Made by a program: the position numbers and the translations under genes
The notes under the pieces: model-generated
Seen by the model: the letters and a program-made list of their open reading frames with translations, nothing else
Databases searched by the model: none
What the model was told of the DNA's origin: nothing
Shown here: piece after piece, positions 2,693 to 52,677 of the stretch
How positions within the stretch are numbered: position 1 is the first letter of the stretch
Layout of the letters: every line of letters starts with the position of its first letter
Source: Candidatus Nomurabacteria bacterium
GTDB taxonomy: Bacteria; Patescibacteriota; Patescibacteriia; HK-STAS-PATE-3
Assembly: GCA_023898465.1 (NCBI GenBank)
Contig: CP060223.1
Coordinates: 896,001 to 960,000 of the forward strand
Direction: 5' to 3'
Length of the DNA stretch: 64,000 bases

Positions 2693-2891
2693 AATACAGA
2701 GATTGATTGAGTAGCGGGGACATTGTGGCTGAATCAATATATTTGTCAAGCAAAAAAATACTGACAAGTGTTTTGCTAAATATTTAGCCCTGTTTTTCAA
2801 TATTATCCTGTGTTTCTTTTGTCAATTTTTTGCCAACAGCTACTTTATTACGATTGACGACCAGGATAAATTGCGCGATACTTCGCATATT

Positions 2892-4052
2892 ATGACGCAT
2901 AAAAAAACAATTCTCGTTCTTACTGGTGGAGGCATTACTCCAGCCCTCAACGCCACCTTGTACGGAGTTATCACTAGTGCCCAAAAAAGTGGGCATACTA
3001 TACTCGGAGGTATCTCAGGATGGAAATCTGTGCTTCAAGGTGGAAAACACATTGATCTCAGCACAGTAGACGTATCATCAATCCAAAAAATCGGTGGTAC
3101 TATTCTACGCTCAAGTCGCACAAATCTTTTTGCTATTGAGAATGGTGTTGCGCAAGTGAAGCAAACGATTGCCAACAATAACATTGATGTCATCATTGCG
3201 ATCGGTGGAGATGATACGCTTGGCGCCTGCGAACGTTTAGTGCGCGAGCATAATATTCAAGCTATCGGCATCCCAAAAACAATTGATAACGATCTCTACG
3301 GCACTTATTGGTCGCCGGGTTATCCTAGCGCCGCTTCGCATGTTGCCCATATTGCTGAACACATTCGCCGTGACGCTGCCTATGCGCTTCGTCGTGCCTT
3401 TGTTATCGAAACCTATGGCATGAAATCCGGCTGGCTCACTGCCGCGGCTGGACTAGGAAAGGCTGATGTAATTCTTACACCTGAAAGGGAAGTTAACACT
3501 GAGCATGTGTTAAATACTATTTACGAGCGCTACGAAGCAAACGGTAGCTACGCCGTAATCGCGGTTGCTGAAAACACCCAATTCTCTGACTCAGTGGAAG
3601 GCGAGGAATATGATGCGGCTGACACCTTTGGACATAAACGACAAAACCATATTTCTATTGCGCTGCGCCGTATTATTAAGAAGCAGCTTAACATCGACTC
3701 TCGCGTCATTATGCCAGGCAACATCGTACAGTCTGGTGAACCTACTCCGATTGATGGAGAAACTGCTACCGCACTTGGACGACAGGCGATCGCTATGATT
3801 GAAAATGAAGACTACGGGCATATCCCGAGCATTGAAGTTGATCAGAAAAACCTTGCGGTCACCATTGGGAAACGACCACTTTCCGAAGTAGTCAGTCATG
3901 AGGGCCCGAGAAAAATAGACGATGAAATGTTTGACTTTGCAAACTATCAAGTGAAGCCTGCCTTCCTCGAATACCTTAAGCCAATGCAAATTCATCCTCA
4001 TACACCAGAGGAATACATTGCCTTGCAAGAAAAGATTCGGGCGATTGAATAA
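2892..4052 (+). CDS. pfk: 6-phosphofructokinase (ATP- or PPi-dependent)
   Basis: KKTILVLTGGGITPALNA, GGDDTLG and PKTIDNDL motifs of the PFK family. The start was chosen at MTHKK. Confidence 0.85.
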   Translation: MTHKKTILVLTGGGITPALNATLYGVITSAQKSGHTILGGISGWKSVLQGGKHIDLSTVDVSSIQKIGGTILRSSRTNLFAIENGVAQVKQTIANNNIDVIIAIGGDDTLGACERLVREHNIQAIGIPKTIDNDLYGTYWSPGYPSAASHVAHIAEHIRRDAAYALRRAFVIETYGMKSGWLTAAAGLGKADVILTPEREVNTEHVLNTIYERYEANGSYAVIAVAENTQFSDSVEGEEYDAADTFGHKRQNHISIALRRIIKKQLNIDSRVIMPGNIVQSGEPTPIDGETATALGRQAIAMIENEDYGHIPSIEVDQKNLAVTIGKRPLSEVVSHEGPRKIDDEMFDFANYQVKPAFLEYLKPMQIHPHTPEEYIALQEKIRAIE

Positions 4053-4083
4053 AAAAACGGTGGCCAGAGAGTTCTGACCACCG
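4051..4083 (-). terminator. rho-independent terminator serving the minus-strand PfkB kinase; lies between convergent genes
   Basis: Hairpin cggtggccagagagttctgaccaccg, preceded on the plus strand by aaaaaaa (a T-run on the minus strand). Confidence 0.55.
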
Positions 4084-4100
4084 GTGAAGGTGCGAATTGA

Positions 4101-5090
4101 CTAGGCAACGGTTTCCCGCTGCGCAAGGAACTGCGTGATTTCGTCACGCGAAGGGACCGAGGATCCCCCGAGACGACTGATCGTAATAGCTGCTCCAGCC
4201 GCGGCCCAACGCAGGGCTTCTGACTTGGACTTGCCATCGAGCAGTGCCCCGATGTAACAGGACAGGAAGGTGTCACCGGCGCCGGTCAAATCCTTGATCG
4301 GCGTATCAGCAAACACTTCGCCGTTGATGCTCTGTTCTCCACCGTTGTACAGAGTGGCACCTTTGGGGCCTCGAGTAACCAAGACCTCCATATGCCGGCC
4401 CTGCCCAATGGCTTGGAGCTCGCTCACCGTACTGAAGCCGAAGCCTCGGAGCAAATGCGCTTCTTCTTCCTCGTTCACGGCCAAGAGGTCGGTGCAAGAG
4501 AGAAGCTGACGCAGGGCTGTGTGGCGACGACGTTCTTCGAGCTCATTACTGAGCTCATACACCAGACTGATCCCGGGATTCAGAATGTTCATCGACGGAG
4601 CAGCTTGACGACCACCCGCTTCAAACATCGCCAGCACCAGAGGCGCATCTGCGATCTGGACACCCGTACCCACAGTCATGTGAGGACGAACTTGATCCAC
4701 CTGTCGGCGAATCAACTCCGCACCACGCTCCATCGCGTCCGGAAGATAGTTGCCCTTTCCAGCGATGATGCGTTGTGCACCGTCCTTGGCTGAGAGACTG
4801 ACCGTGATGTTCGTCCTTTCCCGCAAAGGGAGAGGAAAAGCATCCAACTCCAGCCTACGCAGCTCGGCTTCGAGGTAGCCGGCGTAGCGATCATCACCGA
4901 CCGTACACAGCAGCTTGACCAACTGCCCGCTACGAAGCAGTGCGCGCGCGACGTTGAACGAAGAACCTGCTGCAATCAAGTCAAAGTCACTTGCTGCAAC
5001 CTGTTGCTTCACCACGTCGCTTGTCCCATCAAAACCAGAGACCGCCATTTCCATGTTGGCACTAAAGCCAACCAAAACAGTTCGAGACAT
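4101..5090 (-). CDS. PfkB/ribokinase-family carbohydrate kinase
   Basis: C-terminal DLTGAGDTF anion-hole motif. There is a GGGGGA SD before the ATG at 5090. Local GC (about 58%) is clearly higher than in the neighbouring genes. Confidence 0.8.
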   Translation of the reverse strand: MSRTVLVGFSANMEMAVSGFDGTSDVVKQQVAASDFDLIAAGSSFNVARALLRSGQLVKLLCTVGDDRYAGYLEAELRRLELDAFPLPLRERTNITVSLSAKDGAQRIIAGKGNYLPDAMERGAELIRRQVDQVRPHMTVGTGVQIADAPLVLAMFEAGGRQAAPSMNILNPGISLVYELSNELEERRRHTALRQLLSCTDLLAVNEEEEAHLLRGFGFSTVSELQAIGQGRHMEVLVTRGPKGATLYNGGEQSINGEVFADTPIKDLTGAGDTFLSCYIGALLDGKSKSEALRWAAAGAAITISRLGGSSVPSRDEITQFLAQRETVA

Positions 5091-5219
5091 GCTGTTCCCC
5101 CAGCGTTTCGTAAGCGCTCCCTGTGCTCCCGTGAACACGTTGTAAAGATCATTCAGCGTATGAGCTGATCAGGCATCGCTCGCCTTAACCTGTTGCGATG
5201 ACTGATGACTCAGTCTGAA

Positions 5220-6095
5220 TTACTTTTTCACTGGCCACTCTTTTAGGGCTTGCTCGTACACCTCTGGGGTTCCAATATCGAACCACTGTCCTTCAAATAA
5301 ATATCCGACGAGTTTCTTTTCCTTGGCGAGCTGCGGAAACACGTCCGCCTCTAGCATACTTGACCCGCTGGCCGGTACATAGTCAAGCACTTTTGGCTGC
5401 ATGACTGACACACCGGTAAAAATGAGGTGTGACAAGCGACTTGATCGTTCTGGCTTCTGCAGGAATTCGACAATCTTGCTTCCGTGCATCTTTACCACAC
5501 CATACTCTGATGGCTGACTCACGCTAGTAATTGCCAATGTGGCTAATGCCTTACTCTCCAGGTGGTAATCAACAAACTCGTTAAAGTCGACATCAATGAG
5601 CACGTCACCATAGAGCATAAGGAAGGGACTATCTTTCAGAAGGTGTGCGGCTGCACGCAATGGTGTCGCAGTACCCTCGGACTTACCTTCTTCCACATAC
5701 TGAATGGAAACGCCAAAGCCAGATCCGTCACCAAAATGTTCTTTGATGCGTTCGCCTAAGTGTCCAATGTAAATGATCAGGTTGCGGATGCCACTATCAC
5801 GCAGCGACGTCACGGTGTGTTCCAAGATCGGCTTGCCATGCACTGGAATCATCGCCTTTGGCATCTCATACGTGAATGGACGCATATTCACGCCTCGTCC
5901 ACCAGCCAAGATCAATGCCTTCTGAATACGTGAGCCGAGGACCTTGCCCAGGTGATATTCAATCGCATGGGAACGGTTTCGGATACGCGCACCATCAATG
6001 GTGGCATCGAGCTTATCGAGAATGTCTTGTTTTAAGGTGATAGTGAGGCGTTGTCGTTCCATAAGACTGGGCTTCCGCCTTTCATATACCATCAT
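5220..6095 (-). CDS. sugar-1-phosphate nucleotidyltransferase with an N-terminal ribbon-helix-helix (CopG-like) domain
   Basis: N-terminus MERQRLTITLKQDILDKLDATIDGARIRNRSHAIEYHL is a classic RHH. It is followed by ALILAGGRGVNMRPFT...PKAMIPV...LMLYGDVLID, an NTP_transferase fold. The true start may be at MERQ (6062). Confidence 0.7.
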   Translation of the reverse strand: MMVYERRKPSLMERQRLTITLKQDILDKLDATIDGARIRNRSHAIEYHLGKVLGSRIQKALILAGGRGVNMRPFTYEMPKAMIPVHGKPILEHTVTSLRDSGIRNLIIYIGHLGERIKEHFGDGSGFGVSIQYVEEGKSEGTATPLRAAAHLLKDSPFLMLYGDVLIDVDFNEFVDYHLESKALATLAITSVSQPSEYGVVKMHGSKIVEFLQKPERSSRLSHLIFTGVSVMQPKVLDYVPASGSSMLEADVFPQLAKEKKLVGYLFEGQWFDIGTPEVYEQALKEWPVKK

Positions 6096-6151
6096 ACTCT
6101 AGTGGTATTTGAAAGAAATGTCAATAATATAGGGACTAAATTATGCTAATA

Positions 6152-6910
6152 TTAGCCTTTTTTCTCTTTTTTCTGAGCAAAAAATACTAGCCTTTCTAGA
6201 TCTTCTGGGGTGTTATACCCCATAGCTGATAAGGCGTCTTGTGTTTTGAGGACTTTATAAGGCAACTTATCTTCTGCAGCTATTTTCAGCACATCAGGCA
6301 GGAAATACTCTCCATTTGGATGTTTCGGGATTCGAGCTAACGCGTTCCACACCCATGGGGCATTCATTAAGTAGAGCGCGGGATTCACTTCCCGTATTCG
6401 GAGCTGGGCTGGGCTACACTCATGCGCCTCTCGTATCTCAAGAACACGATTCCGCTTATCTCGAATGATGCGGCCGAATGACTTACACCCTTCATATATT
6501 CCTCGATAGCTTGGCACTTCAACTGTCATCATGGTAAGCACTTCGCCATGATTACGATGAAAGCGAATAAGCTGTTTCAAAGTATTTGCCTGAATAAAAG
6601 GATGATCGCCGTACAAGGGAAGAATATGTTTTGCCTTGGCAGCAGTTTTTTGAGCTGCGCGTACTGCGTATCCCGTGCCCTTGGCTGAAGCGGTAATAAT
6701 CTTTGCCCGCTTGCTAAATTTTTCTTGATATATTTTTTTTGTATCAGGACGGACGACAAGTATAGGCGTAAGAATATCTGACCCGAGCTTATCCAGAGTA
6801 TCTAAAATCCGCTCAAGGGTTGTTTTCCCATTAATCTCATAGAGAGGTTTCAAAGATTTTGTCCCCATTCGCCTATTGCGTCCGGCAGCCAGAACTACGG
6901 GTTGGATCAT
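6152..6910 (-). CDS. GlmU N-terminal-like nucleotidyltransferase (UDP-GlcNAc pyrophosphorylase domain only)
   Basis: MIQPVVLAAGRNRRMGTKSLKPL...LPLYGDHPFI...EVNPALYLM...NGEYFLPDV matches the GlmU uridylyltransferase domain. No LbH acetyltransferase domain is present. Confidence 0.65.
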   Translation of the reverse strand: MIQPVVLAAGRNRRMGTKSLKPLYEINGKTTLERILDTLDKLGSDILTPILVVRPDTKKIYQEKFSKRAKIITASAKGTGYAVRAAQKTAAKAKHILPLYGDHPFIQANTLKQLIRFHRNHGEVLTMMTVEVPSYRGIYEGCKSFGRIIRDKRNRVLEIREAHECSPAQLRIREVNPALYLMNAPWVWNALARIPKHPNGEYFLPDVLKIAAEDKLPYKVLKTQDALSAMGYNTPEDLERLVFFAQKKEKKG

Positions 6911-6996
6911 AAAAAACCGCTAAGCGAAGTTAAGGGAAAACCTGATAAGGTGTACACATATGCTACTGAAAAATACCCTCTCTGGCAAGGCTAGTT

Positions 6997-8157
6997 TTAC
7001 CCAGCCCACTGCCAGTGGGTAAAAGCAAATGTGGTCAGCCCACCGAAGAAAAGCAGAAGAAATAAAAGTAGTGAGCGGATCCAAGCGCTCTGAATCTTCA
7101 ACGCAGCGAAGTAAGCAAGGGGGAATGCTAGCAGGATGTATCGAGTGAATGAATAAAGATGTCCTCCAAGCATTGGTAAGAGCACAACAAAAAAACTATA
7201 AAGTGTAAGTGCAAAGGGTATGCGCTTTTCTCTCAACCCCCACAGGGCAAAAAGAAGTGTAGGTATACTCAGGAGAGTAGCGATAAGCAATTCTCCGCGG
7301 CCGAAAATATCTGCTTGGGTAATGAGTGCATATGCACTTCTCAGCATGCTAGTAATCGGATCGCTTAGTCGATGTCCCCACCACCCCTGACTATGAAGAA
7401 AAGCAAATCCATCACCGCTCACTATATAGTAAAACAGAATTAATAAAGTGCTAGCGATAAAAACACTAGCAATCCAAAGCACATCGCCTAAAGTGATTCG
7501 TCTGCGCTTCACCCACGCTACAATTTCAATAATACAAAGAGTGGCAACTAAGCCTACCCCTACCGGCCGAGCAAAAAGCGCGAGCACAGCAAAAAAAATA
7601 GCTAGCCATCGGTGATGACGCAAGTGAGCAAGGAGGGCGGCGGCGGATACGCAAAAGAAGAGCGACTCGGTGTACCAAGCTGAATAGAAAAAAGCAGCTG
7701 GAAAAAAACTAATCAGTACAAGTGCAAATAGCGCATCTCTTTTTTGTAAGAAGTTACGGGCAATCAAATAACTCAATACTCCTCCAATGAAAAATGAGAG
7801 GTAGGAGACGAGTAAGCCGGCCACCCAAACATTTTGCCATGCATTTCCTATTACGCGAGATAAGACAGGATAGAGGGGAAAGAAGGCTGTCCGATAAAGC
7901 GCATCGCTCTGATACCCACGCACTGCAACATCATAGAGATGATAGCTATCCCATCGAATAAAACTGCTCCACACCTGGCTCTGTGAAAACGCGTCCGGGT
8001 GCGGTTTCACCGATTGCTCAGTATTCACTTGCAAACCAAGCCATGCAACACCAAAGAAAAAAACCCGCGATAAAAAAAGAACCAGCAAAACTATGCCGAT
8101 CTCTCTCTGAAAAAGAAAATGTGTACTTGGGGCTATAGCCCTCGGAGCAATTGCCAC
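6997..8157 (-). CDS. polytopic GT-C membrane glycosyltransferase (PIG-V/GT76-like mannosyltransferase family)
   Basis: 386 aa with about 10 TM helices. The first loop reads FIRWDSYHLYDVAVRGY (an RWD motif as in PIG-V-like mannosyltransferases). Confidence 0.45.
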   Translation of the reverse strand: MAIAPRAIAPSTHFLFQREIGIVLLVLFLSRVFFFGVAWLGLQVNTEQSVKPHPDAFSQSQVWSSFIRWDSYHLYDVAVRGYQSDALYRTAFFPLYPVLSRVIGNAWQNVWVAGLLVSYLSFFIGGVLSYLIARNFLQKRDALFALVLISFFPAAFFYSAWYTESLFFCVSAAALLAHLRHHRWLAIFFAVLALFARPVGVGLVATLCIIEIVAWVKRRRITLGDVLWIASVFIASTLLILFYYIVSGDGFAFLHSQGWWGHRLSDPITSMLRSAYALITQADIFGRGELLIATLLSIPTLLFALWGLREKRIPFALTLYSFFVVLLPMLGGHLYSFTRYILLAFPLAYFAALKIQSAWIRSLLLFLLLFFGGLTTFAFTHWQWAG

Positions 8158-8639
8158 AAAAACAATCCAATCATGGCCACACCAACGGCAAACTTAATAA
8201 TCATGCCGCCCATGTAGCCGATAATAATGTAATGCTTCGTTTCCACGGCAAAGACTCGATCACGACCAACTACCAACTGACTAACCACTGCTCCAAAAAA
8301 AGGCCCAACTACAAAAGCAAAAAGTAAACCAAAGAAGGAACCAATTATTCCTCCAATAACCGCGCCCAAAACGCCCCACAAACTTGCGCGAAATTGTTTA
8401 CCGCCCCAAAGGTAGGCTACGAAGTCTAGCAGCACTACTACTAATCCTAGTACGGAAATAATAAGCAGGAAGGACGGAGTAACTAGTGAAAAGTCTGTAG
8501 CGATCCCATACAATAAAATACCAAACCAAATAAGTGGAATGCTCGGCACTATAGGGAAAGCGATACCAACGAAACCAACGAGTACGATAATGAAGCAGAG
8601 TGTCAGAATGATGAGATGTCCAGCCCCCGTGCTAAACAT
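8133..8639 (-). CDS. DUF456-family small membrane protein
   Basis: Start chosen at MFSTGAGHLIILTL, adjacent to the rnc stop. Four TM helices and a FPIVPSIPLIW segment typical of DUF456. Confidence 0.5.
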   Translation of the reverse strand: MFSTGAGHLIILTLCFIIVLVGFVGIAFPIVPSIPLIWFGILLYGIATDFSLVTPSFLLIISVLGLVVVLLDFVAYLWGGKQFRASLWGVLGAVIGGIIGSFFGLLFAFVVGPFFGAVVSQLVVGRDRVFAVETKHYIIIGYMGGMIIKFAVGVAMIGLFLWQLLRGL

Positions 8640-8640
8640 A

Positions 8641-9330
8641 TTACCATCCCCGGGCGAGTATCCCGGCCTCCGCTGCGCTGACCTGCGCCTCTTGTTTAGA
8701 TGCACCCTCGCCGGTAGCCACCTCTTCATCACCAAAGTAGACTGCTACGCGGAAGTGTTTATTGTGATCTGGACCCCACTCCTCAAGTACTTTGTAGGCA
8801 GGGGTAACGCCTAGCTTTTCCTGACTCGCTTCTTGCAAACGACTCTTTGGGTCGAGATAAAGTTTGTGCTCGATAATGTAGGGGAGTTTAGGAAGCACGG
8901 TTCGCCCAATAAAATCCTTTGCTACTTCAAAACCCTGGTCGAGATAAATTGCTCCGACAATTGCTTCAAAGGCATTTGCTAAAATTGAATGACGTGCTTT
9001 GGCATTTGCGTCTTTTGCTTCACCCCGGCTTAAGAAGATAAACTGATGCACTTCTAATTCTTCCGCGATACTGCCCAGACTTTTTGCGTTCACAAGAGCC
9101 GCTCGCCAGTTTGTCAGATCTCCTTCTGGATTTTCATATTTAGTATAGAGATGTTCAGTGACAGCTAATTCCAAAACAGCGTCGCCGAGAAACTCCAGAC
9201 GTTCGTTATGACCTAAGCGAAAACTAGGGTGTTCGTTCACATATGAACGATGCACTAGTGCTTGATGAAGGTATTCAGTTTTAGTGAAGTGAACGCCGAG
9301 ACGTTCTTCGAGTGCGGTGAATTCAGACAT
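8641..9330 (-). CDS. rnc: ribonuclease III
   Basis: ERLEFLGDAVLELAVTEHLY catalytic signature plus a C-terminal dsRBD. Confidence 0.9.
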   Translation of the reverse strand: MSEFTALEERLGVHFTKTEYLHQALVHRSYVNEHPSFRLGHNERLEFLGDAVLELAVTEHLYTKYENPEGDLTNWRAALVNAKSLGSIAEELEVHQFIFLSRGEAKDANAKARHSILANAFEAIVGAIYLDQGFEVAKDFIGRTVLPKLPYIIEHKLYLDPKSRLQEASQEKLGVTPAYKVLEEWGPDHNKHFRVAVYFGDEEVATGEGASKQEAQVSAAEAGILARGW

Positions 9331-50304: not shown

Positions 50305-51675
50305 ATGTATTGGGCAAATTTCCTGCATATTTATCAACCACCAACCCAAAAACCATATTGGGTGAAGCGAGTCACTGAAGAGTCGTATCGAAAAATCGTT
50401 GCTGAATTAAAGCGCGCTCCGGGTGCTAAACTCACTCTGAACATTAGCGCGGTGCTTGTTGAATTGCTGGATAAGAATGGATGTGGAGATGTTATTGATG
50501 ACATTCGTCTCTTGCTCGAGCGTGGACAAATTGAATTAACCAGCTCAGCAAAGTTTCATCCATTACTACCAAAGATTCCCAAGGATGAAGTTATTCGACA
50601 AATCCAACTGAACGACGAAACGCATCGTAAATATTTTGGTGAACTCTACAAGCCGAAGGGATTTTTCCCACCTGAGATGGCCTTCTCTACCGATGTGGCA
50701 AAGATCGTAAAAGAGCTGGGCTATGAATGGATCATTGTTGATGAATTATCCTTCTCTCGCGAAATCGGCAATATTGATTACAGCAAGCGCTACACGGTTG
50801 AGGGTCTGGATGATTTTTCCATCTACTTCCGTGAACGGCGCATGAGCTACAAAATCCTTTCCGGACAATTAGGATCCGGCTCGCTTCTTATTCAGAGCCT
50901 GGGTGATCGATTAAAGAAAAATGAATACCTCCTAACTGCAATGGATGGAGAAACTTTCGGCCACCACCGTCCAGGTATGGAGCACCTCCTTTTTGAGATT
51001 TACGAATCAAAGGAACTCGAAACTATCCTTATCTCGGATATCCCAAAACACTTCCCAGAGTCCACGCCGATTGATCCTTTGCCATCCACTTGGGCGCTGA
51101 TGGAAAAAGACCTTGAAAAGAATGCGCCGTTTTCTCGCTGGCTTGATCCAGGTAACACAATTCATGAACGACAATGGGAATTAACCAACCTGGCGATTAA
51201 GGCGGTACATGCAAGCGATCAAAGCGATCCAAAATTTCCTGAGGTGCGGACAGCGCTTGATCGAGCAATTCACTCAGATCAATACTGGTGGGCCTCGGCA
51301 AAACCATGGTGGAGTATGGAAATGATTGAGGCAGGCGCTAAGGAGCTGTCTGATGTGGTATTAAACGCGCCAGGCTCAAGTGAAGAGGAGAAGGAACGAG
51401 CGAAACAGCTCTACCAAGAAATTATCTATACCGGCTTTGACTGGCAGCGATCTGGTTTAGTGGAAAAGCTTTCCCAGCAAGAGGATGAGGAAATACGACA
51501 GCGAACTGATGAAGCTATTCCTGAATTACCTGCTGAAGAAATTGATAAAATTATTGCGAACTTGCGCAAAGATATCGATGATGTGGTGAAGCGAGAAGAA
51601 TACGAGCGAGCAGCTCAATTGCGCAATCGCATTAAAGAACTCGAGCAATATCGAGACAAAAAAAGTAAAGAATAA
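50305..51675 (+). CDS. GH57-family alpha-glucan enzyme with a C-terminal UVR domain
   Basis: Paralog of the gene upstream (WANFLHIYQPP, AMDGETFGHHRPG, SDQYWWASAKPWW). It also has EEIDKIIANLRKDIDDVVKREEYERAAQLRNRIKELEQ, a UvrB/UvrC-type UVR motif. Confidence 0.7.
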   Translation: MYWANFLHIYQPPTQKPYWVKRVTEESYRKIVAELKRAPGAKLTLNISAVLVELLDKNGCGDVIDDIRLLLERGQIELTSSAKFHPLLPKIPKDEVIRQIQLNDETHRKYFGELYKPKGFFPPEMAFSTDVAKIVKELGYEWIIVDELSFSREIGNIDYSKRYTVEGLDDFSIYFRERRMSYKILSGQLGSGSLLIQSLGDRLKKNEYLLTAMDGETFGHHRPGMEHLLFEIYESKELETILISDIPKHFPESTPIDPLPSTWALMEKDLEKNAPFSRWLDPGNTIHERQWELTNLAIKAVHASDQSDPKFPEVRTALDRAIHSDQYWWASAKPWWSMEMIEAGAKELSDVVLNAPGSSEEEKERAKQLYQEIIYTGFDWQRSGLVEKLSQQEDEEIRQRTDEAIPELPAEEIDKIIANLRKDIDDVVKREEYERAAQLRNRIKELEQYRDKKSKE

Positions 51676-51753: not shown

Positions 51754-52677
51754 ATGTCACGACTTTCCGCTGAAAAAGTACACTCACTACTCAAACAAAA
51801 AGCTGTTTTTAAGGCTGAGATTACCCATGTGGTACTTGAGAAACACAAAGCCTTTTCTCATTCCAGTCGACTTGCTCGCTATATCGTGTCTCTGGCAAAT
51901 GGGCAAACAAAATATATCCGAGCAAATGTTTGGCCAATCTCAGCTTTTCGTATTGCAGAAGCGCTCAGCGCACAGCAAAGCTTAAAAGCGCCTCAACCGA
52001 TATACTACGACAAGAGTAGTCACACTATTCTTTACGAGGAACTAAATGGTGACACCCTGCGCAGCGTGCCGCTCACCGCAAAAGCATGGAAGCCCATTAT
52101 TCCTAAGGTTGCTCAACTCCTAGCCGCTTTTCATCAAACGCCACTACCTAAGGGCTTAGCACCTGAGACGCAAAGCGCCGCAAAGAAGCGAAGAAAAAAC
52201 CTTGTCCAAGGAATACAAAAGGCTGATAAGGGATATGGCGCACTAGCGAAAGTTGCGTGTAGCCAGCTCGAGTCACAGATTGCTCGCCAGGCCGGAAAAG
52301 TAAAGGCACTCACCCATGGCGATTTCCAGGCAAGTAATATACTCATCGCAAAAAAGAATCTCTCGCTTATTGACTTCACGCTGAGTCGACCAAATCATCC
52401 AGCCAGCGACCTTGGTCTCTGGTTAGTACATTGGCAGGCTATGACGCGCGATCACCTTAGTCACACACAAAGGGAAGAGTTGGGCTATCTCTTTTTACAG
52501 TACTACTTCTCAGCCGTGCCAAAGGCCTGGCACGCACCTATCCGAGCAATGCTTCCAGTCTATGTGAGCGAGGCCACGCTCGAGGTCGCCGCTACCACCT
52601 TGCTTATGTACGGCGCCCACGATACCAATGTTCGCGCATTACTTGATGAATTATTTTCTAGTTTGCACTATGTCTGA
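51754..52677 (+). CDS. APH-like phosphotransferase (aminoglycoside-kinase fold; maltokinase-like candidate)
   Basis: LTHGDFQASNILI catalytic loop and IDFTLS. Embedded in the alpha-glucan cluster. Confidence 0.6.
   Translation: MSRLSAEKVHSLLKQKAVFKAEITHVVLEKHKAFSHSSRLARYIVSLANGQTKYIRANVWPISAFRIAEALSAQQSLKAPQPIYYDKSSHTILYEELNGDTLRSVPLTAKAWKPIIPKVAQLLAAFHQTPLPKGLAPETQSAAKKRRKNLVQGIQKADKGYGALAKVACSQLESQIARQAGKVKALTHGDFQASNILIAKKNLSLIDFTLSRPNHPASDLGLWLVHWQAMTRDHLSHTQREELGYLFLQYYFSAVPKAWHAPIRAMLPVYVSEATLEVAATTLLMYGAHDTNVRALLDELFSSLHYV

What the first reader, a model, noticed from the sequence alone, without database searches (positions are those of the whole stretch)
5220..8157. Sugar-nucleotide/glycosyltransferase trio including a ribbon-helix-helix fused to a sugar-1-phosphate nucleotidyltransferase
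The gene at 5220-6095 joins a canonical CopG/Arc-type RHH DNA-binding domain (RLTITLKQDILDKLDATIDGARIRNRSHAIEYHL) in frame to a complete NTP_transferase domain. It is followed, in the same orientation on the minus strand, by a GlmU-N-terminal-like nucleotidyltransferase and a PIG-V-like GT-C membrane glycosyltransferase. A DNA-binding domain on a nucleotide-sugar-forming enzyme would be a one-polypeptide 'trigger enzyme' coupling metabolite status to transcription. I do not recognise this fusion as a described family.
Basis: partly seen in the sequence, partly recalled or inferred. Interest (0 to 1): 0.5.

Follow-up and report, generated by a model that had tools for sequence, protein, structure and literature searches.

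The report
Enzyme–repressor fusion with conserved operator
A sugar-activating enzyme of tiny, uncultured groundwater bacteria carries a built-in DNA-binding domain, and a matching binding site is conserved in its own promoter across dozens of genomes. The enzyme itself therefore probably switches sugar-metabolism genes on and off.

Summary
The minus-strand gene (true start probably 6062, not 6095) encodes a 280-aa protein: a NikR/CopG-like ribbon-helix-helix (RHH) domain fused to a complete sugar-1-phosphate nucleotidyltransferase (NT). It is not a frameshift. The fusion is conserved at about 278 aa in relatives confirmed in 370 species-representative genomes of Patescibacteria and some archaea.

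New evidence: a tandem repeat, GTATGAT-N3-GTATGAT, sits 10 nt after a TTGAC -35 box in front of the gene in 39 of 80 related loci. In the window it lies at 6082-6097, the only such site in 64 kb. The same promoter-operator unit precedes neighbouring or unlinked sugar and central-metabolism genes. GTATGA is also the E. coli NikR half-site, and the strand residues R-x-T-x-T match NikR. A roughly 211-aa sister family keeps the RHH but has lost the catalytic loops, and it heads NT/PGM/ROK operons.

Best reading: an autoregulated enzyme-repressor for hexose activation and glycolysis genes. DNA binding and metabolite control are inferred, not shown.

The "trio" with the GlmU-like and GT-C genes is not conserved. 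The likely co-transcribed partner is the downstream PfkB kinase. I found no description in the literature. Novelty: new variant of a known kind.

The parts
6119..6124 (-). -35 box TTGACA of the fusion gene's own promoter
   Evidence: Best sigma-70-like site in 3900-8900 (10 of 12 matches, 17-nt spacer). A TTGAC box at a fixed distance from the repeat is conserved in 40 aligned sites.
6096..6101 (-). -10 box TAGAGT
   Evidence: It overlaps the first 2 nt of the repeat element.
6082..6097 (-). Predicted operator: tandem half-sites GTATGAT-GGT-ATATGA, 10-bp period, covering the -10 edge and the expected transcription start, 20 nt upstream of ATG 6062
   Evidence: It is the only match with at most 1 mismatch to GTATGA-N4-GTATGA in the 64-kb window (0.14 expected). 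PWM score is 20.2 bits; the next best hit in the window scores 12.9 and lies inside a gene. The same element sits upstream of the orthologous gene in 39 of 80 loci.
5928..6062 (-). RHH DNA-binding domain (residues 1-45 counted from M at 6062): strand RLTITL, helix A, turn G-x-x-I-R-N-R-S, helix B
   Evidence: AF2 helices at 12-21 and 30-42/45.
5244..5921 (-). Sugar-1-phosphate nucleotidyltransferase domain (residues 48-273), catalytic motifs intact
   Evidence: PF00483 E 1e-43. Foldseek and PDB sequence hits to UDP-Glc pyrophosphorylase 8x7s, GDP-Man pyrophosphorylases, MurU and RmlA. The GGxGxRxxP, PK, GT, YGD, EKP and WxDxG residues are invariant in 30 homologs.
5220..6062 (-). Whole RHH-NT coding sequence (280 aa plus stop). 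The ORF-finder start at 6095 is probably spurious.
4101..5090 (-). PfkB-family sugar kinase, probably co-transcribed with the fusion gene (start ATG 5090 preceded by GGGGGA)
   Evidence: PF00294 E 1e-28. No strong terminator lies between the two genes. PfkB, ROK or other kinase-like genes follow the fusion gene in many loci.
4058..4083 (-). Intrinsic terminator ending the RHH-NT/PfkB unit
   Evidence: 11-bp stem (7 GC pairs) plus a T-run.
6152..6910 (-). GlmU N-terminal-like nucleotidyltransferase (upstream neighbour, not a conserved partner)
6997..8157 (-). PIG-V/GT-C-like membrane glycosyltransferase (upstream neighbour, not a conserved partner)

Best explanation
The gene encodes a bifunctional enzyme-repressor.

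The C-terminal domain is a catalytically competent hexose-1-phosphate nucleotidyltransferase of the UDP-glucose / GDP-mannose pyrophosphorylase / MurU clade. The exact sugar and nucleotide are unassigned.

The N-terminal NikR-like RHH domain dimerises. Two dimers bind two GTATGA half-sites one helical turn apart (10 bp centre to centre). These half-sites overlap the -10 box and the transcription start of the gene's own promoter, so binding represses the RHH-NT/PfkB-kinase unit.

In other genomes the same promoter-operator unit controls adjacent or unlinked genes for sugar phosphorylation, hexose-phosphate interconversion and glycolysis.

Occupancy of the NT active site by hexose-1-P/NTP or by the NDP-sugar product is proposed to change the geometry or oligomeric state of the RHH dimers, and so DNA affinity. 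That would couple hexose-phosphate supply to transcription. My preferred direction is substrate-induced release, as in PutA or CggR; product co-repression is almost as likely.

Shown here: the fusion, its conservation, RHH homology, intact catalytic motifs, and the conserved motif with its position and distribution. Inferred: that this protein binds the motif, that binding represses, and that ligands modulate it.
For: (1) The fusion is conserved. Relatives were confirmed by tblastn in 370 genomes of the species-representative collection, from many Patescibacteria lineages and Altiarchaeota-type archaea; the 80 best loci were read and their matches begin within the RHH (query residues 1-6). All 120 best protein hits are full length.

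(2) RHH homology is supported by profile hits to NikR (E 7.8e-5), CopG and an RHH antitoxin, by 22 of 27 members hitting RHH_1, and by helices in the expected places.

(3) The operator is specific. GTATGA-N4-GTATGA (at most 1 mismatch) occurs 57 times in 613 kb of 80 loci. Forty of these lie within 200 nt upstream of the fusion gene on the gene's strand (39 loci), and about 10 more lie in front of the next gene. A PWM scan gives 66 hits against 2.6 expected.

(4) The distance to the -35 box is fixed (TTGAC-N10-repeat), while the distance to the start codon varies from 6 to about 150 nt. The element is therefore promoter-level rather than translational.

(5) An unbiased metagenome scan for -35 box plus repeat gave 61 loci. 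In 29 the next gene is an RHH-NT. Recurrent others are PFK-family genes (2), glutamate dehydrogenase (3) and HAD hydrolases (2), plus a single xylose-isomerase-like TIM barrel gene.

(6) The half-site GTATGA equals the E. coli NikR half-site (PMC7055735, PMC4486848). The outward-facing strand residues R-x-T-x-T are the same as in NikR's QRVTITL.

(7) A sister family of about 211 aa keeps the RHH but has deletions of the GxRxxP...PK loop, the EKP segment and the C-terminal WxDxG (hhalign probability 100%, E 7e-49). It heads operons of ManC-like NT, PGM/PMM and ROK kinase, and has TATGA-N5-TCATA, again 10 bp centre to centre, abutting its start codon. Retention of the RHH after loss of catalysis argues that regulation is a selected function.

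(8) Downstream neighbours are strongly biased to sugar-phosphate metabolism: PGM/PMM, PGK, GAPDH, PFK, PfkB, ROK, HAD, aldolase and transketolase.

(9) In the window, promoter, operator, two genes and terminator form a coherent unit.
Against: There is no experimental evidence of any kind.

The window protein on its own is below Pfam's RHH_1 threshold.

Foldseek with the isolated domain model gives only an insignificant top hit, although that hit is an RHH regulator (Reg576, E 3.3). The monomer models do not form the N-terminal strand, which is expected because the sheet forms between subunits.

About half of the loci have no recognisable repeat upstream of the gene.

Part of the motif doubles as a -10-like sequence (TATGAT, TATAGT), so some of its conservation may be promoter conservation.

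The archaeal loci show only suggestive TCATA/TATGA elements that may be TATA boxes.

That the motif is bound by this protein rather than another factor rests on co-occurrence and the NikR analogy. The NikR base contacts (R3, T5, T7) are recalled from memory and could not be checked in the held literature.

The direction and identity of the metabolite signal are unknown.
Confidence: 0.65

Rival explanations
1. The protein is a dedicated transcription factor. Its NT domain is only a ligand sensor or oligomerisation scaffold, and the protein no longer works as an enzyme in vivo.
For: A sister lineage has clearly gone this way, with the catalytic loops deleted and the RHH kept. In those genomes a separate ManC-like NT is encoded next door. 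The window also has a second NT gene at 6152-6910.
Against: In the window protein and 29 aligned homologs every canonical catalytic or substrate residue is invariant: GGxGxRxxP, PK, GT, YGD, EKP and WxDxG. Identity to a solved UDP-Glc pyrophosphorylase is 34% over the whole domain. That pattern indicates selection for catalysis.
Confidence: 0.12
2. The RHH-like N-terminus is only a dimerisation or stability appendage of the enzyme. The GTATGA repeats are bound by a different regulator, and the fusion gene is merely one of that regulator's targets.
For: No binding data exist. About half of the family's loci lack the motif. The motif also occurs at loci with no RHH-NT gene on the stretch of contig held.
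Against: The residues expected to face DNA (R, T, T) and the NRSH helix-B cap are the most invariant part of the whole protein. The half-site equals that of NikR, which has the same strand residues. The motif's strongest association by far is with this gene: 40 of 57 sites in the genome loci and 29 of 61 in an unbiased scan. The pseudo-enzyme sister keeps both the RHH and the half-site.
Confidence: 0.1
3. The repeat is simply a strong or extended -10 promoter element typical of these organisms, not an operator.
For: It sits where a -10 box is expected, and TGATATAGT or TATGAT inside it resemble (extended) -10 boxes.
Against: A generic promoter element should precede many genes. In 613 kb of related genomes nearly all copies flank this one gene, and the 64-kb window has a single copy. 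The second heptamer lies downstream of any -10 box yet is as conserved as the first. Inverted versions with the same 10-bp spacing occur (L071, L142, L144).
Confidence: 0.07
4. The fusion is an assembly or frameshift artefact, or a toxin-antitoxin-like module (RHH antitoxin plus nucleotidyltransferase toxin).
For: RHH plus 'nucleotidyltransferase' is a frequent pairing in the toxin-antitoxin literature.
Against: The same single ORF occurs in hundreds of independent assemblies from NCBI, JGI, ENA and Logan. The NT is a GT-A-like sugar-1-P nucleotidyltransferase, not a Pol-beta-type toxin. The gene context is housekeeping sugar metabolism.
Confidence: 0.01

Closest known systems
PutA (trifunctional proline utilisation A)
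   Same: An N-terminal RHH domain is fused to a metabolic enzyme in one polypeptide, and the protein acts as an autogenous repressor of its own regulon (PMC5293562 abstract). It is the classic RHH 'trigger enzyme'.
   Different: PutA is a roughly 1300-aa flavoenzyme (PRODH/P5CDH), and its switch works through flavin reduction and membrane binding. Here the protein is a 280-aa sugar-1-P nucleotidyltransferase with a different operator (GTATGA repeats). There is no sequence relationship outside the RHH fold.
NikR
   Same: It is the closest solved relative of the RHH domain (E 7.8e-5). It shares the strand pattern R-x-T-x-T and the N-R-S helix cap, and its half-site GTATGA is identical. It also consists of an RHH plus a C-terminal ligand-binding oligomerisation domain.
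   Different: NikR's C-terminal domain is a nickel-binding ACT-like tetramerisation domain, not an enzyme. Its half-sites are inverted and 16 bp apart. Here they are direct (sometimes inverted) and one helical turn apart.
BirA and NadR (DNA-binding adenylyl/nucleotidyl-transferring enzymes)
   Same: The logic is the same: an enzyme that activates a metabolite with a nucleotide also represses the related genes. BirA's co-repressor is its own reaction intermediate (own knowledge; BirA is mentioned as a trigger enzyme in PMC8449670).
   Different: They use HTH or winged-HTH DNA-binding domains and unrelated catalytic folds.
CggR and ROK repressors (Mlc, NagC)
   Same: These are regulators of glycolytic or sugar genes whose sensor domain derives from a sugar-phosphate enzyme fold. 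The regulon content is similar (gap, pgk, pfk, kinases) (own knowledge).
   Different: They have different DNA-binding domains, and their sensor domains are not catalytically active nucleotidyltransferases.
CugP-type UDP-glucose pyrophosphorylase (8x7s), GDP-mannose pyrophosphorylases, MurU
   Same: These are the best sequence and structure matches of the catalytic domain (E 1e-39 to 1e-25, TM 0.7-0.77, about 30-34% identity).
   Different: None carries an RHH. CugP and GMPP have a C-terminal beta-helix that is absent here. No NCBIfam equivalog cutoff is reached.

Membership tests
Ribbon-helix-helix (CopG/Arc/MetJ/NikR) DNA-binding domains | Significant profile similarity to known RHH domains | tested here: met
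   The family profile hits NikR 1q5v (E 7.8e-5), with weaker, non-significant matches to CopG (E 0.089) and an RHH antitoxin (E 1.1). Of 27 members, 22 hit PF01402, best E 8e-6. The window sequence alone is sub-threshold (18.4 against 20.5 bits).
Ribbon-helix-helix (CopG/Arc/MetJ/NikR) DNA-binding domains | Strand-helix-helix topology of about 45 aa | tested here: inconclusive
   AF2 gives helices at 12-21 and 30-42/45 with pLDDT of about 89. The N-terminal segment is extended but not scored as a strand in a monomer. Foldseek's top hit is the RHH regulator Reg576, but at E 3.3.
Ribbon-helix-helix (CopG/Arc/MetJ/NikR) DNA-binding domains | Alternating polar and hydrophobic N-terminal strand, and a G-x-(S/T/N) turn capping helix B | tested here: met
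   R-L-T-I-T-L and D-G-x-x-I-R-N-R-S-H are invariant or nearly invariant in 30 homologs. They align with NikR's R-V-T-I-T-L and N-N-R-S-E.
Ribbon-helix-helix (CopG/Arc/MetJ/NikR) DNA-binding domains | Repeated operator half-sites at the regulated promoter | tested here: met
   GTATGAT-N3-GTATGAT overlaps the -10 box and transcription start in 39 of 80 loci and in the window. Enrichment is 66 PWM hits against 2.6 expected.
Ribbon-helix-helix (CopG/Arc/MetJ/NikR) DNA-binding domains | Dimer formation and sequence-specific DNA binding | not testable with these tools
   This needs EMSA or footprinting, or a multimer-DNA structure prediction.
Sugar-1-phosphate nucleotidyltransferase (PF00483) | Domain match above the curated cutoff, and GT-A-like fold | tested here: met
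   150 bits against a cutoff of 21.2. Foldseek E 1e-23 to 8x7s, VTC1, GMPPB, MurU and RmlA.
Sugar-1-phosphate nucleotidyltransferase (PF00483) | Catalytic and substrate motifs: GGxGxRxxP, PK, GT, (Y)GD, EKP, WxDxG | tested here: met
   All are invariant across 30 homologs and align to the same motifs in 8x7s and GMPPB.
Specific enzymes (UDP-Glc PPase GalU/AglF, ManC, MurU, RmlA, GlmU) | NCBIfam equivalog score cutoff | tested here: not met
   Best scores: mannose-1-P guanylyltransferase 157 against 440, MurU 151 against 250, archaeal GlmU 147 against 292, RmlA-long 138 against 320. The substrate cannot be assigned.
Trigger enzymes (PutA-like enzyme/repressors) | Enzyme and DNA-binding domain in one polypeptide, with an operator at its own promoter | tested here: met
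   The evidence is comparative, not biochemical.
Trigger enzymes (PutA-like enzyme/repressors) | DNA binding switched by the enzyme's substrate or product state | not testable with these tools
   This is inference only.
NikR family | C-terminal nickel-binding ACT-like tetramerisation domain | tested here: not met
   The C-terminal domain is an NT. Only the RHH aligns to NikR (residues 2-42 of 133).
Type II toxin-antitoxin (RHH antitoxin) | A small RHH protein paired with an adjacent toxin gene | tested here: not met
   The RHH is fused to a housekeeping-type enzyme, and the neighbours are metabolic genes.
GlmU (neighbour gene 6152-6910) | C-terminal left-handed beta-helix acetyltransferase domain | tested here: not met
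   Matches cover only profile positions of about 3-240 of about 450; the protein is 252 aa.
PIG-V / GT-C mannosyltransferases (neighbour gene 6997-8157) | Pfam PF04188 match | tested here: inconclusive
   The gene's own score is 20.7 against a cutoff of 22.4. Most of its 96 homologs are annotated PF04188 and/or PF13231.

The most novel reading that the evidence does not exclude
The RHH-NT is the master regulator of hexose activation and central carbohydrate metabolism across much of the Candidate Phyla Radiation, and it is shared with Altiarchaeota-type archaea. In this reading the NDP-hexose-forming enzyme itself reads hexose-phosphate status and partitions carbon between envelope glycan synthesis and fermentative glycolysis by binding GTATGA repeats.

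It would be the first transcription factor-operator-regulon triplet defined for Patescibacteria. It would also be a living series from bifunctional trigger enzyme to pure pseudo-enzyme repressor (the roughly 211-aa sister family).
Probability: 0.4. Interest if true: 0.75.

Novelty: new variant of a known kind. Interest (0 to 1): 0.6.

Why it matters
Almost nothing is known about transcriptional regulation in Patescibacteria (CPR). These are ultra-small, mostly uncultured bacteria with minimal metabolism and very few recognisable regulators.

Here a regulator, its DNA site and a plausible regulon can be read directly from sequence, and they can be tested with one recombinant protein and a 30-bp oligonucleotide.

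The finding adds a second RHH-enzyme architecture to PutA. It shows the same recognition code (R-x-T-x-T and GTATGA) reused outside NikR. Together with the catalytically degenerate sister family, it offers a natural example of how an enzyme becomes a transcription factor.

It also improves annotation. Hundreds of database entries are labelled only 'NTP transferase domain-containing protein'.

Tried and rejected
- **Frameshift or missed stop.** Rejected: the single ORF is conserved everywhere.
- **Trio as a conserved module.** Rejected: tblastn of the window's neighbours against 80 loci found a GlmU-like gene in 4 and GT-C in none.
- **Toxin-antitoxin reading.** Rejected: wrong NT superfamily and wrong gene context.
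- **Foldseek with the isolated 47-aa domain model.** Only insignificant hits. The domain is too small and monomeric to be informative.
- **Riboswitch in the long (70-170 nt) leaders of some loci.** Rfam found only rRNA and tRNA.
- **Identity of the most common downstream family (about 330 aa, weak DUF6206).** The PDB profile search and NCBIfam gave nothing. The 'kinase-like' label rests only on motifs (K, GxDPxPxNF, YVDLxPP).
- **Archaeal operator.** TCATAT...TATGA-like elements are present in some loci but cannot be separated from TATA boxes. Left as inconclusive.
- **Other operator copies in the window.** None. The 12.9-bit hit at 51347 lies inside a gene.
- **Literature check of NikR residues R3, T5 and T7.** The papers are not held. 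Only the half-site and the strand-in-major-groove statement could be cited.
- **Names or taxonomy for the roughly 211-aa family.** None in the cluster tables.


Full report
**What is in the window.** On the minus strand the order of transcription is as follows:
- a GT-C-like membrane glycosyltransferase, 8157-6997;
- a GlmU N-terminal-like nucleotidyltransferase (NT), 6910-6152;
- the fusion gene (ORF 6095-5220);
- a PfkB-family sugar kinase (start probably ATG 5090, end 4101);
- a strong intrinsic terminator, 4083-4058.

The source is a Candidatus Nomurabacteria genome. The identical database proteins are P0001 and P0121 (H6760_04445), on a 1.08-Mb contig.

**The fusion is real.** The 291-aa ORF matches PF00483 over residues 59-284 (E 1e-43). 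On its own it matches RHH_1 only weakly. A homolog search returned 1785 proteins. The best 120 are all 269-307 aa and cover 92-99% of the query, and 118 of them carry the R-N-R-S-H motif of the N-terminal domain. Nearly all begin MxRxRLTITL, as does the identical 280-aa database entry, so the true start is ATG 6062.

In an alignment of 30 homologs at 51-69% identity, the N-terminal 45 residues are the most conserved part of the protein (RLTITLkkDLLxxxDxxIDGxRIRNRSHAIEYLL). Every canonical NT motif is invariant: GGxGxRxxP, PK, GT, YGD, EKP and WxDxG. A scan of one genome per species (GTDB r232) found 370 loci encoding a relative. These come from many Patescibacteria lineages and also from Altiarchaeota-type archaea, whose contigs carry archaeal markers such as PAC2 and DUF835. 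A frameshift or assembly artefact is excluded.

**The N-terminal domain is an RHH.** A profile of the domain hits the RHH domain of E. coli NikR in the PDB (E 7.8e-5), aligning ERLTITL...RNRSHAIEYLL to QRVTITL...NNRSEAIRDIL. CopG and an RHH antitoxin follow. Of 27 members, 22 hit PF01402. AF2 models of the full protein (pLDDT 90) and of the isolated domain (pLDDT 89) place helices at 12-21 and 30-42/45, behind an extended N-terminal segment. Foldseek on the 47-aa monomer is uninformative: the top hit is the RHH regulator Reg576, at E 3.3.

**The catalytic domain.** It is closest to the CugP-type UDP-glucose pyrophosphorylase 8x7s (E 1e-39, 34% identity), then to GDP-mannose pyrophosphorylases, MurU and RmlA. 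No NCBIfam equivalog cutoff is reached. I therefore call it a hexose-1-phosphate NT of unassigned specificity.

**A conserved operator.** This is the main new result. Aligning the upstream regions of the 80 fetched loci revealed a tandem direct repeat, GTATGAT-N3-GTATGAT, with a 10-bp period.
- With at most one mismatch, the pattern GTATGA-N4-GTATGA occurs 57 times in 613 kb (both strands). Forty copies lie within 200 nt upstream of the fusion gene on the gene's strand (39 loci). About ten more lie just after its stop codon, in front of the next gene.
- A PWM scan gives 66 hits against 2.6 expected from shuffles.
- In 40 aligned sites the repeat starts 10 nt after a TTGAC -35 box, so it covers the -10 region and the transcription start. 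Its distance to the start codon varies from 6 to about 150 nt. It is therefore a promoter-level DNA element.
- The sites in front of downstream genes have the same -35 box and repeat geometry.

In the window, the best promoter-like site of the region (TTGACA 6124-6119, 17-nt spacer, TAGAGT 6101-6096) is followed directly by GTATGATGGTATATGA (6097-6082), 20 nt before ATG 6062. This is the only match with at most 1 mismatch in 64 kb, against 0.14 expected.

**An unbiased check.** Scanning the metagenome collection for TTGAC-N10-GTATGAT-N3-GTATGA gave 61 loci. In 29 of them the next gene is an RHH-NT, including two cut by contig ends. Recurrent other targets, on stretches of contig without an RHH-NT gene, are PFK-family genes (L088, L116), glutamate dehydrogenase (L100, L114, L134) and HAD hydrolases (L113, L125); a xylose-isomerase-like TIM-barrel gene (L093) occurs once. 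The element therefore behaves like the operator of a small trans-acting regulon that includes the regulator's own gene.

**The link to the RHH.** GTATGA is the half-site of E. coli NikR (GTATGA-N16-TCATAC; PMC7055735 and PMC4486848). NikR's antiparallel strands occupy the major groove of each half-site. The outward-facing strand residues here, R-x-T-x-T, are identical to NikR's. From memory, NikR R3, T5 and T7 make the base contacts; I could not verify this in the held papers.

Inverted versions of the site keep the same 10-bp centre-to-centre spacing: TATGA-N5-TCATA in L071, L142 and L144. This is what one expects if two symmetric RHH dimers sit side by side on one face of the DNA.

**A pseudo-enzyme sister family.** An exhaustive profile search with the RHH domain alone found 599 cluster representatives (170 at E no greater than 1e-10). 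They show two architectures: the 260-290-aa RHH-NT and a class of roughly 205-218 aa. The short class aligns with the RHH-NT family over its whole length (hhalign probability 100%, E 7e-49). It lacks the GxRxxP...PK catalytic loop, the EKP segment and the C-terminal WxDxG motif.

In L142 and L144 the short gene heads an operon of a ManC-like NT, then PGM/PMM, then a ROK kinase. The inverted TATGA pair abuts its start codon. The RHH and its DNA site are thus retained where catalysis has been lost, which argues that regulation is a selected function of this domain. The pathway association (sugar to hexose-6-P to hexose-1-P to NDP-hexose) is also explicit there.

**Genomic context of the fusion gene.** The GlmU-like and GT-C genes of the window are not conserved neighbours. 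The gene that follows the fusion gene is co-directional in 64 loci; the gap is at most 40 nt in 20 of them and at most 150 nt in 46. It is most often one of the following:
- an uncharacterised family of about 330 aa (17 loci, weak DUF6206);
- PGM/PMM (8 archaeal loci);
- PGK (4);
- ROK kinase (3);
- PfkB (3, including the window);
- PFK, GAPDH, TrmB or HAD (2 each);
- aldolase or transketolase.

A PPi-type PFK lies within 1-3 kb in about 12 loci and also in the window (2871-4052).

**Mechanism proposed.** The protein is an autoregulated enzyme-repressor. RHH dimers bind the two half-sites over the -10 box and transcription start and block transcription of the RHH-NT/PfkB unit. In other genomes they do the same for kinase, mutase and glycolytic genes. 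The ligand state of the NT domain modulates binding. I favour release by substrate (hexose-1-P/NTP), which would induce sugar-handling genes when hexose phosphates are available, by analogy with PutA and CggR. Co-repression by the NDP-sugar product, in the manner of BirA, is nearly as plausible.
- Shown: the architecture, its conservation, RHH homology, intact catalytic motifs, and the motif with its position and distribution.
- Inferred: binding, repression and allostery.

**Rival explanations.** I considered four (details in the Rival explanations section):
- a pure sensor or regulator without catalysis;
- an RHH used only for oligomerisation, with another factor binding the motif;
- the motif as a mere promoter element;
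- an artefact or a toxin-antitoxin module.

None fits the distribution of the motif, the invariance of both the DNA-facing and the catalytic residues, and the sister family as well as the main explanation does.

**Novelty.** Full-text searches for RHH together with sugar nucleotidyltransferase or pyrophosphorylase, and with Patescibacteria or CPR, found no description. Database names are generic, such as 'NTP transferase domain-containing protein'. The kind of system is known: an RHH-enzyme trigger enzyme, as in PutA. This architecture, its operator and its predicted regulon are new. Verdict: new variant of a known kind, interest 0.6.

Noticed in passing
L003, L005, L007-L010, L012, L013, L027, L028, L031, L032, L037, L040, L056, L059, L064 (25-100 nt upstream of the repeat); absent at window 6125-6200: A DnaA-box-like 9-mer (TTATCCACA or TGTGGATAA, either orientation) sits 10-40 nt upstream of the -35 box of many operator-controlled promoters. 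About 15-19 of 53 relaxed matches in 613 kb are in this position. It could be a second regulator site, DNA bound by DnaA acting as a transcription factor, or a general upstream promoter element of these bacteria.
   Followed up: partly
L142 875-1510, L144 4001-4645, L143 4001-4636; proteins P0271, P0278, P0363 and alignment A5: A family of roughly 211 aa has the same RHH fused to a catalytically degenerate NT domain. In L142 and L144 it heads operons of a ManC-like NT, PGM/PMM and a ROK kinase directly after rpsT, with TATGA-N5-TCATA abutting its start codon. Its taxonomy is unknown.
   Followed up: partly
L010 5211-6245, L017 5012-6046, L035 4927-5907 and 14 other loci (alignment A4): The most frequent gene after the RHH-NT is an uncharacterised family of about 330 aa (weak DUF6206) with the conserved motifs K, GxDPxPxNF and YVDLxPP. 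These suggest a protein-kinase-like small-molecule kinase. It has no PDB or NCBIfam match.
   Followed up: partly
L065 4906-4921 (-), L066 4869-4884 (-): Good copies of the repeat lie on the opposite strand in the convergent intergenic region between the RHH-NT gene and a ROK kinase gene. There is no -35 box and no obvious downstream gene. Unexplained.
   Followed up: no
L018, L020, L022, L024, L029, L035, L049 (upstream part of the loci): In a Buchananbacteria-type subgroup the RHH-NT gene lies shortly downstream of the 23S-5S rRNA genes. In L020 and L029 the 23S match spans 1-1.7 kb more DNA than the model positions covered, suggesting insertions in the rRNA gene.
   Followed up: no
L010, L018, L020, L022, L024, L028-L030, L035, L040, L047, L049 (between operator and start codon); L023 and L056 (500-700 nt): Long untranslated leaders of 70-170 nt (up to about 700 nt) lie between the promoter-operator and the RHH-NT start codon. 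There are no Rfam matches, and their function is unknown.
   Followed up: partly
window 2871-4052 (+): A PFK-family phosphofructokinase lies convergent with the RHH-NT/PfkB unit. A homolog lies within 1-3 kb of the fusion gene in about 12 of 80 loci, and PFK-like genes carry the operator in L032, L037, L088 and L116. The window copy has no operator.
   Followed up: partly
L001, L007, L008, L018, L029, L049, L055, L058 record titles: Several contigs whose gene content and best matches are Patescibacteria-like are titled 'uncultured Gammaproteobacteria' (binchicken or SRP co-assembly MAGs). The record names look unreliable for taxonomy.
   Followed up: no
window 51754-52677 (+): The ORF carries an HGDFQASNILI motif typical of aminoglycoside-phosphotransferase-like small-molecule kinases. 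It was seen while checking a weak, intragenic PWM hit at 51347 and appears unrelated to the operator.
   Followed up: no
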